Source of the DNA: a virus
Lineage: Duplodnaviria > Heunggongvirae > Uroviricota > Caudoviricetes
DNA length: 6,119 bases
Virus record (IMG/VR): IMGVR_UViG_2534681763_000010
Location: 1-6,119 of that record
Reading direction: 5' to 3' (one strand)
Below the pieces are notes generated by a model. It was not told the origin of the DNA, searched no databases, and saw nothing but the letters and a program-made list of their open reading frames with translations. Positions within the stretch are counted from its first letter, which is position 1. Each line of letters opens with the position of its first letter. Positions 237 to 2,219 of this stretch are shown in pieces. Made by a program: the position numbers and the translations under genes.

Positions 237-299
237 CCGTTTAACTCCGTGGTTAATGGGTGCAACTATTTTCTGTTGTGCAGAGCATGAGACGCTATT

Positions 300-314
300 T
301 GACCTGGCTGGTCA
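300..314 (-). promoter_or_regulatory. Perfect dyad TGACC-N5-GGTCA in the short promoter region upstream of FI; candidate activator/operator site for the late sheath operon promoter
   Basis: Seen directly: TGACC at 300..304 and GGTCA at 310..314, about 80 nt upstream of the FI ATG, between a terminator and the FI ribosome-binding site. P2 late promoters are activator (Ogr)-dependent, but this dyad does not match the TGT-N12-ACA consensus I recall, so the assignment is tentative. Confidence 0.25.
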
Positions 315-330
315 GGGGATGAAACAACAG

Positions 331-358
331 ATAAAGAAAATGCGGGCAATTCGCCCGC
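331..358 (-). terminator. Rho-independent terminator (minus-strand orientation) ending the upstream cargo/tail-fibre transcript before the FI promoter
   Basis: GC-rich 6-bp stem GCGGGC (342..347) pairing with GCCCGC (353..358), 5-nt loop. On the minus-strand transcript it is followed immediately by the U-rich run AUUUUCUUUAU (plus 341..331). Confidence 0.5.
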
Positions 359-579
359 CTGTCCTGATTTGTACTCACTCATTTTCCGCCTGACAATTTA
401 CATAGCCCAAATGCTATCAAATCTGACAGTCTGCTTTGAGCGAAGAGCGGACTTGAGACTATTGTAAATGAAAACCATATAATTTTAACCGGCAGAAACA
501 CATGAGTAATTTTAAGGCTAATTAGTTATCTGGGAGATGAGGGGCAAAGCACGATATCGTACACCAATGGAATAAGCTT

Positions 580-613
580 ATGATTAATATAAATATAAAA
601 GGCAGAAAGCCTT
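580..613 (-). terminator. Weak candidate terminator-like hairpin inside the 600-bp non-coding spacer
   Basis: 5-bp stem AAGGC (599..603) / GCCTT (609..613) with loop AGAAA; on the minus strand it is followed by the U/A-rich run UUUUAUAUUUAUAUU (plus 598..580). Short stem, so low confidence. Confidence 0.25.
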
Positions 614-833
614 CCTCAAAATGGCTTGAATCGGGGGCATCTGTCTGCGAAACGATTTTTTAGACGTTTTTATCGCTTTCAGTTCAGTTTTCCCCTCGAA
701 TCCAAGTGACAAAGCCGATTTAGTTTTCACACATCCGTACAATGTGCATCCCTCGATGAGCCTTTTCAGGCAAAGTTACGGGGATGCTTGATTCATTTAA
801 ACTGAGTTAGTACAACTTAATTAATAATATCAT

Positions 834-1826
834 TTATGCTAGAGTTGAATATTCTCCATTTCCTCGGTCGGTGAGTGTTAATTCGCGGCCATTTTCTGTA
901 AATGTAATGGCATCCAGCAGGCTTTTTCCTGTTACAGCTATACCATATCCAAGGTTATCAATCTTTGAACTGTCCTCAGATGATATTGGTATTTGTACAA
1001 GCATACCAACAACAAAGCCGTATTTGTTAATTATAGGGCCACCGCTATTCCCCCCCTTAACCCTAGCATTGAATAATAAAAAGTCTTGTGAATCTAAGTA
1101 AGAGTGACCAGAACCAACAATTCGCCCCTTTGACAGTCGGACAAACGAATTTATATGCGAAACGTCATATAACTTTAATGCATCAAATCCTGGAATGGGT
1201 GGAAATCCTATTGATAAAATTTCATCCAGTACCGAGGCTTTGGTTGAGACCTTAAGTGGTTGAATATTATCTTCATTCGGAATGGTTGTGAAAACTAAAG
1301 CGATATCAATACGTTCATCGTTAGATACAAAGATTTTATGTATTGGTAAAGCCTCACCACCAGCTCTAAGTATCCTGATACTCTTCATGTCTTCAATAAC
1401 ATGTCTGGCTGTAAATATCGTGTGGTTATTCCCAACAATAAAACTAGTACCAAGATCATGTGAACCATCACTTTTTTCAACAACAACAGGTAAAACGGAA
1501 GGACTAAGGCGGTCTATGATTGACTCAAATCCATCAGCTATAAAATCATACTTTCCATATTTCGCATCTGATTCATTGAAATTCGGTGCGAAATAGCAAC
1601 GGTCCAAAAGAGTATGTCCTGAAGATAATTCCATTAAAATACCTTCAGTTGCTAGCTTTTCACAATTGCGTATTAACTTCATCATATCGAGAGTATTTTC
1701 CCACTCAGGTTTGAGACGGGTCAGGCTCTCAATTGTTTTTCTCTCTTTTACGTTATCGTTTTCCGGTTTGTCATAAAAATATTTCACTATTTCTGTTGGT
1801 GTTACATATGTTTTTTTTATAGTCAT
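834..1826 (-). CDS. Trypsin-like (chymotrypsin-fold, S1 family, HtrA/DegP-like motifs) serine protease with an uncharacterised N-terminal domain; cargo (moron) gene in the G-FI hotspot
   Basis: Long minus-strand ORF ending at TAA 836..834. Catalytic motifs in canonical His-Asp-Ser order: TARHV (His codon 1401..1403), DIALVF (Asp codon 1305..1307), GGNSGGP (Ser codon 1044..1046). No hydrophobic signal peptide or transmembrane stretch at the N-terminus, so probably cytoplasmic. About 35% GC versus about 55-63% in flanking tail genes. Start chosen at ATG 1826 (MTIKKTYV...) because a candidate promoter lies just upstream; the track ORF starts at an in-frame GTG at 1880 (18 codons longer), which cannot be excluded. 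Confidence 0.8.
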   Translation of the reverse strand: MTIKKTYVTPTEIVKYFYDKPENDNVKERKTIESLTRLKPEWENTLDMMKLIRNCEKLATEGILMELSSGHTLLDRCYFAPNFNESDAKYGKYDFIADGFESIIDRLSPSVLPVVVEKSDGSHDLGTSFIVGNNHTIFTARHVIEDMKSIRILRAGGEALPIHKIFVSNDERIDIALVFTTIPNEDNIQPLKVSTKASVLDEILSIGFPPIPGFDALKLYDVSHINSFVRLSKGRIVGSGHSYLDSQDFLLFNARVKGGNSGGPIINKYGFVVGMLVQIPISSEDSSKIDNLGYGIAVTGKSLLDAITFTENGRELTLTDRGNGEYSTLA

Positions 1827-1870
1827 TTTTGTACCCGCGATGACGTTATTCCATATATTTTTCTTTGTAG

Positions 1871-1899
1871 AAAATATCACTATTGCTGGTAAATGTTAA
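1871..1899 (-). promoter_or_regulatory. Candidate sigma70-type promoter for the protease gene
   Basis: On the minus strand, TTAACA (plus 1899..1894), 17-nt spacer, TATTTT (plus 1876..1871). This predicts a transcript start near 1864, consistent with the ATG at 1826 rather than the GTG at 1880. Pattern match only. Confidence 0.3.
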
Positions 1900-2144
1900 G
1901 TTCAGTGCTCGCACTAAAGCTGGATGATCAACGTCGCCCTCGTATGGAAATCAGGTAAGATTCATGTCTACTTGGGGTCTAGGGTAGACAGCATAAAAAC
2001 GTACGATAGCGTTCGATTGGCTCTCACCCCCGCCTATAAACCATGAGGTTGATAGGGTAGTATCGTTAGGCAATAGTATACATGTAAGTATCCAACCTAA
2101 TTGGTCTTGAGATTTCTAACTAACGTGTCGTTATGTCCGCTCCT

Positions 2145-2168
2145 GGCACAGAGCGGACTGTCAGATTA
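2145..2168 (-). other. Strong perfect hairpin about 50 nt downstream of the gene G stop: possible terminator or RNA-stability element, or part of a structured RNA
   Basis: Perfect 8-bp inverted repeat GTCCGCTC (2145..2152) / GAGCGGAC (2161..2168) with an 8-nt loop. No U-tract follows on the minus strand, so it is not a canonical intrinsic terminator. Confidence 0.4.
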
Positions 2169-2219
2169 GGCTTTACTCTGTTCTATAGGTATGTAAGCTC
2201 ACACAAGAGTTCATACAAC

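What the first reader, a model, noticed from the sequence alone, without database searches (positions are those of the whole stretch)
237..833. Unusually long (about 600 bp) AT-rich non-coding spacer between the protease stop and FI
Operon-packed P2-type tail genes normally have intergenic gaps of a few nucleotides (3 nt for H-G, 8-nt overlap for J-I in this window). Here about 600 bp separate the protease stop from FI, with no ORF of 60 codons or more, roughly 35-42% GC, and two terminator-like hairpins (about 331..358 and 599..613). It could be a decayed remnant of an earlier cargo gene, a small RNA or micro-protein that was not called, or a recombination scar marking the module boundary.
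Basis: partly seen in the sequence, partly recalled or inferred. Interest (0 to 1): 0.4.

Follow-up and report, generated by a model that had tools for sequence, protein, structure and literature searches.

The report
Composite spacer at P2 cargo hotspot
The 600-base gap is not one element: it joins the tail-sheath promoter, an old operon terminator, a conserved inverted-repeat arm that marks the edge of the well-known P2 "Z/fun" cargo hotspot, and the untranslated tail of an imported protease gene cassette. It is therefore mostly ordinary.

Summary
The gap is real: 597 nt, window 237-833, all genes on the minus strand, longest ORF 52 codons. It is a mosaic of four parts.

- **237-330:** FI leader plus the P2 late promoter PF with its TGT-N12-CCA activator site.
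- **332-362:** an intrinsic terminator. In P2-like phages with an empty hotspot it sits directly after gene G.
- **363-452:** a "right arm" present next to at least 33 unrelated cargos and in about 1,000 E. coli genomes. It is an inverted copy of a left arm after G (2135-2219). Each arm ends in a 24-nt palindromic unit at the exact cargo junction.
- **453-833:** the 3' flank of the protease cassette. It travels with the protease into non-P2 contexts in E. coli and Salmonella.

I found no Rfam family, no protein family and no conserved ORF. The only protein hit is a non-conserved ORF called on the same DNA in Salmonella. The 3' flank diverges about half as fast as four-fold sites, which I cannot explain.

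Inverted repeats around this hotspot were already reported (Nilsson 2004, as cited in a review). Verdict: a new instance of a known hotspot architecture, of low to moderate interest. The junction units are a testable lead on how cargos are swapped.

The parts
237..303 (-). FI 5' leader and core of the P2-type late promoter PF. The transcription start maps to 262-260.
   Evidence: Pairwise alignment to phage P2 (NC_001895), whose record annotates the F-operon start site 24-26 nt upstream of the FI ATG. Shown by homology only; no transcript data.
304..330 (-). Counterpart of the annotated activator (Ogr/delta) binding site of PF. It contains TGT(326-324)-N12-CCA(311-309), the same half-degenerate dyad as in P2.
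   Evidence: The P2 feature 'activator binding site; activation of pF promoter' (L003 3556-3584) aligns here. The sequence was read.
332..362 (-). Intrinsic terminator: stem 358-342, T-run 341-332. It is the ancestral terminator of the V-W-J-I-H-G operon.
   Evidence: Terminator scan; -13.7 kcal/mol. In the P2-like loci L019, L054, L056, L059, L079 and L082 it follows the G stop codon after 2-4 nt, with no cargo and no arms. Kept in 40 of 40 distinct sequences.
363..428 (-). Outer part of the right arm of the G-FI (Z/fun) hotspot. It is a conserved non-coding linker containing CTGTCAGATTTGATAGC...GCTAT...TGTCAG.
   Evidence: Conserved in P2 itself and in 1,048 of 5,426 E. coli genomes, typically matching window 237-452. 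Absent from empty sites. It is an inverted copy of 2159-2219. No covariation supports an RNA structure.
429..452 (-). R unit: the 24-nt palindromic unit GTCCGCT-CTTCGCTCAA-AGCAGAC at the right cargo junction. It can be read as 9-6-9: GTCCGCTCT | TCGCTC | AAAGCAGAC.
   Evidence: Junction profiles over 32 distinct cargos. The cargo-side arm varies with the cargo, while the centre and the other arm stay with the phage. A C.A mismatch occurs in 23 of 40 sequences. Homology to the non-P2 copies of the cassette ends inside this unit.
453..514 (-). Pre-R segment of the protease cassette. It includes a sigma-70-like match (TTAAAA 488-483, TACAAT 466-461) pointing towards FI.
   Evidence: Conserved with the 80%-identical protease cassettes L008 and L095, where it lies 16-30 nt after the protease stop. 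The promoter-like match comes and its function is untested.
515..640 (-). AT-rich middle of the cassette's 3' flank, seen only in the E. coli and Salmonella copies of this cassette. It contains the weak terminator-like hairpin 615-597.
   Evidence: Absent from L008 and L093. Present at about 95% identity in Salmonella L167. No match in phages or plasmids. The hairpin stem is broken in DX6 and EC02.
641..833 (-). Protease-proximal 3' flank with two stem-loops: hairpin A 819-796 and hairpin B 787-746.
   Evidence: Shared with L093 (9.4% divergence against 21.5% at four-fold sites). Shared in progressively shorter pieces with L006, L011, L007 and L094. Both hairpins keep pairing through compensatory changes. 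Fold z-score -2.8 for 590-833.
834..1826 (-). S1/trypsin-like serine peptidase, the cargo gene (330 aa from the ATG at 1826).
   Evidence: Pfam Trypsin_2, E = 1.8e-17. RefSeq annotation as 'S1 family peptidase'. PADLOC gives domain-level hits only.
1827..2134 (-). 5' flank of the cassette, with a sigma-70-like promoter carrying an extended -10 at 1899-1871.
   Evidence: Promoter scan. It travels with the protease in every context.
2135..2158 (-). L unit: GTCCGCT-CTGTGCCAGG-AGCGGAC at the left cargo junction. Read as 9-6-9 it is GTCCGCTCT | GTGCCA | GGAGCGGAC.
   Evidence: -17.3 kcal/mol.
2159..2219 (-). Outer part of the left arm, directly after the G stop codon.
   Evidence: Conserved after G in P2 and in the P2-like loci. 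It is an inverted copy of the right arm: 61 of 97 aligned columns identical, z = 6.8 against 1,000 shuffles.

Best explanation
[quoted passage not shown] This is the classical Z/fun 'moron' position.

Read in the direction of transcription (minus strand), it has four parts.
1. 833-453 is the untranslated 3' flank of a self-contained protease cassette: own promoter, coding sequence, two stem-loops after the stop, then AT-rich sequence.
2. 452-363 is the right arm of the hotspot. It starts with a 24-nt palindromic R unit.
3. 362-332 is the original terminator of the V-to-G operon. It now stops transcripts that enter from the cargo.
4. 330-237 is the Ogr-dependent late promoter PF and the FI leader.

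What is shown: the homology relations, the sharp junctions, and the empty-site arrangement.

What is inferred: cargos are swapped by recombination at the two inverted units. L lies on the G side and R on the FI side, and the crossover falls in or next to their 6-bp centres. The cargo-side half of each unit therefore travels with the cargo and the other half stays with the phage. The enzyme is unknown. The 381-nt cassette flank has no demonstrated product and most likely acts as the 3' untranslated and terminating region of the protease transcript.
For: **PF promoter and terminator.** P2 annotation and alignment place the start site, the activator site and the FI ATG at 262-260, 330-304 and 236. 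Six P2-like loci have the G stop followed after 2-4 nt by the same terminator and PF, with neither arms nor cargo.

**Sharp, shared junctions.**
- In 80 P2-like loci, homology to the window ends at 443-457 on one side and 2133-2144 on the other, enclosing cargos of 847-4,128 nt.
- 46 loci with both arms hold 33 unrelated cargos.
- Both junctions read arm-to-cargo as ...AGCGGAC-R-TT, after which conservation falls to background.
- The arms are inverted copies of each other, z = 6.8.

**The cassette moves as a unit.** Window about 2154 to about 429-446 occurs at 94-99.6% identity beside a thrW fragment and a P4-type integrase in E. coli DX6 and EC02, and beside umuDC-like genes in Salmonella. 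In each case homology ends inside the L and R units. Diverged protease homologues (80-88% aa) also carry L and/or R units.

**Cassette arrays.** R-linker-L junctions occur in L094, L013 and L080, and in about 17 of 66 R units found in 60 species-representative loci.

**Hybrid-site signature.** The cargo-side arm of R has C where the phage-side arm has A in 23 of 40 sequences.

**Literature.** Review PMC8987985 states that fun is flanked by inverted repeats enabling site-specific exchange, citing Nilsson et al. 2004.

**No known product in the flank.** No RNA family, no protein family and no conserved ORF.
Against: - There are no transcript or protein data for any part.
- No recombinase is linked to the units. 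Local tblastn with P4-type integrases and Pin/resolvase found a convincing match in only one of the 60 loci carrying R units (a second hit was 23% identical), and the 25 commonest Pfam families among 150 neighbouring ORFs are ordinary accessory functions.
- No cargo was seen in both orientations, although inverted sites would allow that.
- Sharp junctions could also arise from homologous recombination in the 85-90-nt arms, with the units being only the last shared bases.
- The arms are absent from empty sites, so their origin is unexplained. It could be a single ancient insertion with about 90-bp terminal inverted repeats.
- The cassette's 3' flank diverges about 2.3 times less than four-fold degenerate sites in two comparisons: 18/192 against 26/121, p = 0.004, and 17/365 against 14/132, p = 0.02. 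A purely passive flank would not be expected to do this.
- I could not read Nilsson et al. 2004, so I do not know how much of the unit anatomy is already published.
Confidence: 0.7

Rival explanations
1. 453-833 encodes a functional non-coding RNA or cis-acting RNA element of the protease cassette. Examples would be a structured 3' untranslated region controlling mRNA stability, or a small RNA made from the promoter-like site at 488-461 and ended by the terminator at 358-332.
For: - The flank diverges about 2.3 times less than four-fold sites against both L093 and Salmonella L167.
- The fold of 590-833 is more stable than shuffles, z = -2.8, with 1 of 200 shuffles as good.
- Hairpins A and B keep pairing through compensatory changes in L093, L006 and L007.
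- The pre-R segment 453-514 is kept in cassettes whose proteases are only 80% identical.
- A sigma-70-like match lies at 488-461.
Against: - No Rfam family matches, even at E <= 10.
- More distant protease homologues keep only the first 15-190 nt after the stop, and L008 lacks 515-815 altogether.
- Salmonella carries a 14-nt deletion in hairpin A plus small indels.
- The fold of 330-600 is not exceptional, z = -1.1.
- Too few diverged copies exist for a covariation test.
Confidence: 0.2
2. The spacer holds the decayed remnant of a second cargo gene, a small protein gene downstream of the protease that is still intact in Salmonella.
For: Salmonella GCA_001570345.1 has an 85-aa ORF called 23 nt after its protease homologue (P0075). 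The window matches it across three reading frames: 59% identity in one frame at E = 5e-13. Relative to that ORF, the window has a stop at codon 7 and two frameshifts.
Against: - The more distant relative L093 also has a stop at codon 7 (TGA, against TAA in the window) and shares the window's length where Salmonella has a 2-nt deletion. The open frame is therefore a derived, lineage-specific state.
- P0075 is a singleton cluster with no Pfam domain.
- No other frame hits Pfam, PHROGs or the 5.8-billion-protein set.
Confidence: 0.07
3. The L and R palindromes are not recombinase sites. They are structural intergenic repeats of the REP/BIME kind, or transcription insulators, that happen to sit at module ends. 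Cargo turnover is then ordinary homologous recombination between the conserved arms and flanking G and FI genes, plus occasional illegitimate joins.
For: - The genes next to R units in 60 species-representative loci are everyday accessory genes (GNAT, LysR, AraC, EamA, MFS, ArsBC), with no recombinase enriched.
- The arms of 85-90 nt, together with G and FI, give ample homology between P2-like phages.
- No inversion of a cargo was seen.
- R-L pairs in alternating orientation resemble BIME organisation (established knowledge of REP/BIME).
Against: - Copy number in E. coli is low: median 1 and maximum 7 places per genome, 150 of them on plasmids. REP families have hundreds of copies.
- The same cassette sits in four contexts that share no flanking homology beyond the units themselves.
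- The conserved-to-variable switch falls within a few bases of the unit centre for 32 different cargos.
- The C.A hybrid mismatch in R units is frequent.
Confidence: 0.3

Closest known systems
Z/fun hotspot ('moron position 2') of phage P2 and P2-like phages, between G and FI
   Same: Same position between G and FI. The flanking non-coding arms are the same as in P2 itself. The cargo is AT-rich and foreign with its own promoter, and turnover is high, with 33 cargos in 46 loci. Inverted repeats around fun and exchange by site-specific recombination were already proposed by Nilsson et al. 2004, as summarised in PMC8987985. The hotspot is also described in PMC3573123, bioRxiv 10.1101/2024.10.15.618418 and PMC13586616.
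   Different: The cargo here is a lone S1 peptidase in the same orientation as the tail genes, whereas fun(Z) is antisense. Its 3' flank is unusually long at 381 nt. I could not check whether the 24-nt unit anatomy, the cassette arrays or the non-P2 copies are in the 2004 paper.
P2 late promoter PF (Ogr/delta-activated) and the V-operon terminator
   Same: The start site, the TGT-N12-CCA dyad and the leader align with the annotated P2 features. In empty phages the terminator hairpin directly follows G.
   Different: The P2 record annotates a different, cargo-side hairpin as the V-operon terminator (L003 1640-1667). It leaves the conserved hairpin upstream of PF unannotated.
pdif modules of Acinetobacter plasmids, and recombinase-mediated cassette exchange in general
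   Same: Discrete gene modules are bounded by two inversely oriented, near-palindromic sites of about 28-30 bp, and the same module is found in unrelated replicons. This rests on my own knowledge of that literature. The analogy fits the 9-6-9 reading of the L and R units.
   Different: The unit sequences bear no resemblance to XerC/XerD sites (compared from memory), and no recombinase has been identified. The resemblance is one of logic only.
Integron gene cassettes with attC sites
   Same: Short, largely promoter-poor modules are separated by imperfect palindromes. Arrays of two or three cassettes occur. AAY...RTT at the unit edges recalls RYYYAAC/GTTRRRY.
   Different: There are two inverted sites per cassette instead of one directly oriented attC. 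No IntI gene or attI site was found nearby, gene orientation is not fixed, and the units are 24-30 nt rather than 57-141 nt.
REP/BIME extragenic palindromes
   Same: GC-rich palindromes of about 24 nt lie in intergenic DNA, often paired in alternating orientation with a short linker.
   Different: Copy number is low (median 1 per E. coli genome), and the units are tied to variable or mobile regions and plasmids.

Membership tests
P2-type late promoter (PF) | Partial dyad TGT-N12-ACA centred near -55 from the start site | tested here: met
   TGT(326-324)-N12-CCA(311-309), centred about 56 nt upstream of the mapped start at 262-260. P2's own PF has the same CCA variant.
P2-type late promoter (PF) | Activation by Ogr/delta and a late transcript starting about 25 nt before FI | not testable with these tools
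   There is only homology to the annotated P2 start site. An ogrK gene is present in the related prophage L005.
Intrinsic (rho-independent) terminator | GC-rich stem-loop followed by a U-run, placed at the end of an operon | tested here: met
   358-342: 7 bp with 6 G-C pairs, followed by ATTTTCTTTA; -13.7 kcal/mol. It lies directly after G in empty phages and is kept in 40 of 40 sequences. Termination activity itself was not tested.
Intrinsic (rho-independent) terminator (second hairpin, 615-597) | Stable stem plus U-run, conserved | tested here: inconclusive
   3 G-C, 2 A-U and 2 G-U pairs, -8.4 kcal/mol. The stem G-to-A change in DX6 and EC02 breaks a pair, and Salmonella has a 1-nt insertion right after it.
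P2 G-FI (Z/fun) cargo hotspot | Variable foreign DNA between G and FI, with conserved flanks shared with P2 | tested here: met
P2 G-FI (Z/fun) cargo hotspot | Inverted repeats flanking the cargo (Nilsson 2004, through PMC8987985) | tested here: met
   33-nt inverted repeat 420-452 / 2135-2167. Whole arms: 61 of 97 columns identical, z = 6.8.
Recombinase core-type site (inverted arms around a 6-8 bp centre) | Two inverted binding arms separated by a short asymmetric centre; crossover within the centre | tested here: inconclusive
   The sequence fits 9-6-9, and the conserved-to-variable switch lies at the centre. Homologous recombination ending at the last shared bases would look similar.
Recombinase core-type site (inverted arms around a 6-8 bp centre) | A cognate recombinase that binds and cuts the site | tested here: not met
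   No integrase or invertase gene is consistently nearby. Only one of 60 loci gave a convincing tblastn match (a second hit was 23% identical), and none appears in the 25 commonest Pfam families of 150 neighbouring ORFs. A trans-acting enzyme is not excluded.
Integron cassette / attC | One attC per cassette in direct orientation, next to an intI-attI platform | tested here: not met
   There are two inverted units per cassette. No integrase platform is present in the window or in the P2-like loci.
REP/BIME | Tens to hundreds of copies per genome in extragenic positions | tested here: not met
   Median 1 and maximum 7 places per E. coli genome, in 2,692 of 5,426 genomes.
Any curated RNA family (Rfam 15) | Covariance-model match | tested here: not met
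   No hit falls in 237-833 at E <= 10 on either strand.
Protein-coding gene or pseudogene within 237-833 | Similarity to a protein family, or an ORF conserved across relatives | tested here: not met
   No Pfam or PHROG hit. The single database hit, P0075, is not conserved in L093. Indels break every long frame.

The most novel reading that the evidence does not exclude
The 24-30-nt L and R palindromes (AAY-GTCCGCTyy-GTGCCA/TCGCTC-rrAGCGGAC-RTT) would be the two heterospecific, inversely oriented core sites of an uncharacterised site-specific cassette-exchange system. That system would shuttle single-gene modules, defence genes included, between P2-like phages, other prophages, plasmids and chromosomal islets across Enterobacterales and Idiomarinaceae. 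It would be the missing mechanism for the rapid defence swapping that recent surveys describe but cannot explain.
Probability: 0.3. Interest if true: 0.65.

Novelty: new member of a known kind. Interest (0 to 1): 0.3.

Why it matters
For annotation, this shows that a 'long empty spacer' in a P2-like tail module is expected wherever the Z/fun hotspot is occupied. It also gives base-level landmarks for delimiting cargo automatically: the PF promoter, the relocated V-operon terminator, the arms, and the L and R units.

More broadly, the 2026 survey of P2 and P4 defence hotspots (PMC13586616) states that how defences move between these elements and unrelated mobile elements is unknown. It notes that transposable elements are nearly absent and that homologous flanks are lacking.

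The results here point to a concrete, testable cis-element. The same protease cassette sits in four unrelated contexts with breakpoints inside two conserved palindromes, and the same palindromes bound at least 33 other cargos. An older proposal (Nilsson 2004) already hinted at this.

Tried and rejected
- **Rfam** scan of 1-2300 at E <= 10: nothing in the spacer.
- **Pfam and PHROGs** on all eight stop-free frames of 28 aa or more: nothing.
- **Search of 5.8 billion proteins** with the two longest frames: one hit, which turned out to be an ORF called on the same non-coding DNA in Salmonella, and none for the other frame.
- **blastn of the cargo-specific part** against phage and plasmid collections: no match.
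- **RNAalifold on 40 right-arm sequences:** covariation term -0.14, only 2 pairs with double changes, so no support for a structured RNA in the arm.
- **P4 as the source of the arms:** the motif is absent from the P4 hotspot.
- **Gin/Hin-type invertase sites and Xer dif:** rejected on sequence, compared from memory. The 'GTGCCAA' match to the R64 shufflon spacer is only a 7-mer and the arms differ.
- **Retron-like ncRNA:** considered because PADLOC's best hit is the protease domain of RT-protease type XI. There is no reverse transcriptase gene in the window, so I dropped it.
- **ERIC similarity** of the left arm (GAGCTTACATA): an 11-nt match only, not pursued.
- **Same cargo in both orientations:** none found.
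- **Nilsson et al. 2004 and Odegrip et al. 2006:** neither is held in the paper library.
Full report
**Layout and check of the observation**

All genes in the window run on the minus strand: J, I, H (5069-2751), G (2747-2220), an S1 peptidase (1826-834 from the RefSeq ATG, or 1880-834 from the first GTG), and the first 78 codons of the tail sheath gene FI (236-1). The gap between the protease stop and the FI ATG is 237-833, 597 nt. Its longest ORF is 52 codons with a TTG start. GC is 0.355-0.44 over about 400-833 but 0.48 near FI.

One is strong (358-342 plus a T-run, -13.7 kcal/mol) and one is weak (615-597, -8.4 kcal/mol, two G-U pairs).

The yardstick used does not. G-FI is an operon boundary, not an intra-operon junction. 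Across 76 P2-like loci the distance from FI to the nearest ORF of 80 or more codons is as follows:
- 128-132 nt when the hotspot is empty;
- mostly about 210-575 nt when it is occupied, with an overall median of 288;
- 786 and 945 nt in the two loci that exceed this window.

**The FI-proximal third is P2 backbone**

A megablast of the spacer against 5,426 complete E. coli genomes found matches in 1,048. Nearly all cover only window 237 to about 452. Only 13 cover the whole spacer.

Phage P2 itself aligns from window 452 down to FI. In its record the activator-binding site of promoter PF, the F-operon start site and the FI ATG correspond to window 330-304, 262-260 and 236. The window keeps P2's TGT-N12-CCA dyad.

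The hairpin at 358-342 lies immediately upstream of that site. In six P2-like loci (L019, L054, L056, L059, L079, L082) the G stop codon is followed after 2-4 nt by this same hairpin and then PF, with nothing in between. I therefore read it as the ancestral terminator of the V-to-G operon. Everything from 363 to 2219 is an insertion relative to that empty state.

**The arms and the junction units**

In 80 P2-like loci fetched through FI, homology to the window stops at 443-457 on the FI side and at 2133-2144 on the G side. These limits enclose cargos of 847-4,128 nt. Forty-six loci with both arms hold 33 unrelated cargos.

The 85-nt left arm (2219-2135) and the 90-nt right arm (452-363) are inverted copies of each other: 61 of 97 aligned columns are identical, z = 6.8 against shuffles.

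Each arm ends, on its cargo side, in a 24-nt palindrome:
- L = GTCCGCT-CTGTGCCAGG-AGCGGAC (2158-2135);
- R = GTCCGCT-CTTCGCTCAA-AGCAGAC (452-429).

Over 32 different cargos both junctions read ...AGCGGAC-R-TT and then fall to background conservation. The phage-side arm and the centre are 90-100% conserved. The cargo-side arm is 70-90% conserved. The two bases between the centre and the cargo-side arm are about 50% conserved.

In 23 of 40 distinct right junctions the cargo-side arm has C where the phage-side arm has A. That mismatch is what a hybrid of two different units would give. The units can be read as 9-6-9 sites, GTCCGCTyT | TCGCTC | AAAGCGGAC and GTCCGCTCT | GTGCCA | rrAGCGGAC.

RNAalifold on 40 right arms gives no covariation support for an RNA structure apart from the terminator.

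**The cargo-side two thirds belong to the protease cassette**

Window 460-833 occurs in only 41 E. coli genomes, always at 95% identity or more, and in no phage or plasmid record.

The whole block from about 2154 to about 429 is found at 99.6% identity in E. coli DX6 and EC02. There it lies next to a thrW 3' fragment, a P4-type integrase and an unrelated prophage. From about 2154 to 446 it is found at 94% identity in Salmonella next to umuDC-like genes. In every case the homology ends inside the L and R units.

Protease homologues at 80-88% amino-acid identity keep progressively less of the 3' flank:
- L093 to window 641;
- L006 to 747;
- L011 to 784;
- L007 to 797;
- L094 to 818;
- L008 to about 818 and then 514-416.

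Yet L008, L011 and L095/L096 each still end in a recognisable R unit 75-172 nt after the stop codon, with a degenerate one about 195 nt after it in L093. Several also have an L unit upstream. In L094 an R unit and an L unit, 12 nt apart, sit just upstream of the protease. This is a junction of two cassettes. L013 and L080 show two- or three-cassette arrays inside P2-like hotspots.

**Is anything encoded in 453-833?**

There is no Rfam match, and none of eight stop-free frames hits Pfam or PHROGs.

Of the two longest frames searched against 5.8 billion proteins, one found nothing. The other found a single 85-aa 'hypothetical protein' of Salmonella. That ORF lies on the homologous DNA 23 nt after the Salmonella protease. 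Relative to it, the window has a stop at codon 7 and two frameshifts. The more distant L093 also has a stop at codon 7 and shares the window's length where Salmonella has a 2-nt deletion. The open frame is therefore a Salmonella-specific accident, not an ancestral gene.

Two stem-loops right after the protease stop (819-796 and 787-746) keep their pairing through compensatory changes in L093, L006 and L007. The fold of 590-833 is more stable than shuffles, z = -2.8.

One result remains unexplained. The flank diverges less than four-fold degenerate sites of the adjacent gene:
- 9.4% against 21.5% for L093, p = 0.004;
- 4.7% against 10.6% for Salmonella, p = 0.02.

I take this as weak evidence of constraint, perhaps on mRNA 3' structure or termination. 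It is why I keep an RNA function as a 0.2 rival.

**How widespread the units are**

The exact pattern GTCYGCTNNTCGCTCAAAGCGGAC hit 60 stretches in species-representative genomes. My rough estimate of the chance expectation is about 0.5. The hits are in Citrobacter, Pantoea, Erwinia, Enterobacter, Leclercia, Proteus, Shigella, Idiomarina and others, including a Pantoea plasmid. About 17 of the 66 R units are followed after 14-19 nt by an L unit.

In E. coli an R-linker-L query matched 2,692 of 5,426 genomes, with a median of 1 and a maximum of 7 places per genome, 150 of them on plasmids. This is not a high-copy REP-like family.

The neighbouring genes in the 60 loci are ordinary accessory functions: GNAT, LysR, AraC, EamA, MFS, ArsBC and dehydrogenases. 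No recombinase is enriched. The enzyme, if there is one, is not identified.

**Comparison with what is known**

The G-FI position is the classical Z/fun or 'moron position 2' hotspot. [quoted passage not shown] 2004. I could not obtain that paper.

The 2026 survey of P2 and P4 defence hotspots says the mechanism of exchange with other mobile elements is unknown, and it does not mention repeats.

The finding is thus a new instance of a known architecture, here with an S1-peptidase cassette that has an unusually long tail. The logic resembles pdif modules or recombinase-mediated cassette exchange. Membership in the integron, Xer, invertase or REP families fails on the features I could test.

**Verdict**

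The spacer is real but composite and largely explained. About 36% of it is generic P2 regulatory and boundary DNA. The rest is the non-coding tail of an imported cassette with no detectable product. Interest is low to moderate. The most valuable by-product is the base-level definition of the cassette junctions.

Noticed in passing
window 1827-2134 (minus strand): The protease cassette also has a long non-coding 5' flank of 308 nt. A sigma-70-like promoter with an extended -10 lies at 1899-1871. That favours the ATG at 1826 (RefSeq, 330 aa) over the GTG at 1880 as the start codon. About 235 nt upstream of that promoter have no assigned role. This flank diverges 13.9% against L093 and 6.5% against Salmonella, also below four-fold sites.
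   Followed up: partly
window 1966-1989: A third palindrome of the same geometry, GTCTACC-CTAGACCCCA-AGTAGAC, lies in the protease 5' flank. It is conserved in DX6 and EC02 but not as a hairpin in L008 or L093. The weak Rfam 'Na+ riboswitch' hit (17.5 bits against a gathering score of 40.5) lies on its opposite strand and is probably chance.
   Followed up: no
L004 about 8560-8610 and L002 (E. coli DX6 and EC02): In the non-P2 context the cassette is followed, about 250 nt after the R unit, by the 3' half of tRNA-Thr (thrW-like, ...TTCGTAATGCGAAGGTCGTAGGTTCGACTCCTATTATCGGCACCA) and then a P4-type integrase. The cassette therefore sits at the edge of tandem elements integrated at thrW.
   Followed up: partly
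L014, L026, L028, L029, L035, L039, L040, L044, L049, L052, L053, L063, L068, L074: A second class of P2-like loci shares homology with the window only up to about 327. In these a 197-256-aa ORF ends just 59 nt before FI, so the upstream part of PF lies inside a gene. This is a different arrangement of the G-FI boundary, and I did not examine it.
   Followed up: no
L167 4001-4258 (Salmonella GCA_001570345.1): An 85-aa 'hypothetical protein' is annotated over the non-coding tail of the protease cassette. It looks like an over-call created by a C/T change and two small indels, or else a very young ORF.
   Followed up: yes
window 2219-2207, 819-804 and 369-385: The motif GTTGTA-nnn-ACTC follows both the G stop codon and the protease stop codon (TAA-GTTGTATGAACTC and TAA-GTTGTACTAACTC). 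Its reverse complement sits at the outer end of the right arm (GAGTGAGTACAA). It may mark the outer ends of the original insertion, or it may be chance: I estimate that about 0.5 such pairs would occur by chance in 2 kb.
   Followed up: partly
window 506-488 and 400-382: The pre-R segment (ACTCATGTGTTTCTGCC) can pair with the outer right arm (GGCGGAAAATGAGTGAG), enclosing the R unit in the predicted fold. The complementarity is not kept in L008, so I treated it as fortuitous.
   Followed up: partly
L006 1596-5020: An 82%-identical protease homologue sits between a tail-fibre assembly gene and a convergent tail-fibre gene, about 1.8 kb from a resolvase/invertase gene, in a phage that also carries P2-type U and D tail genes. 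The cassette can therefore also lodge in a tail-fibre gene region that has an invertase gene nearby.
   Followed up: no
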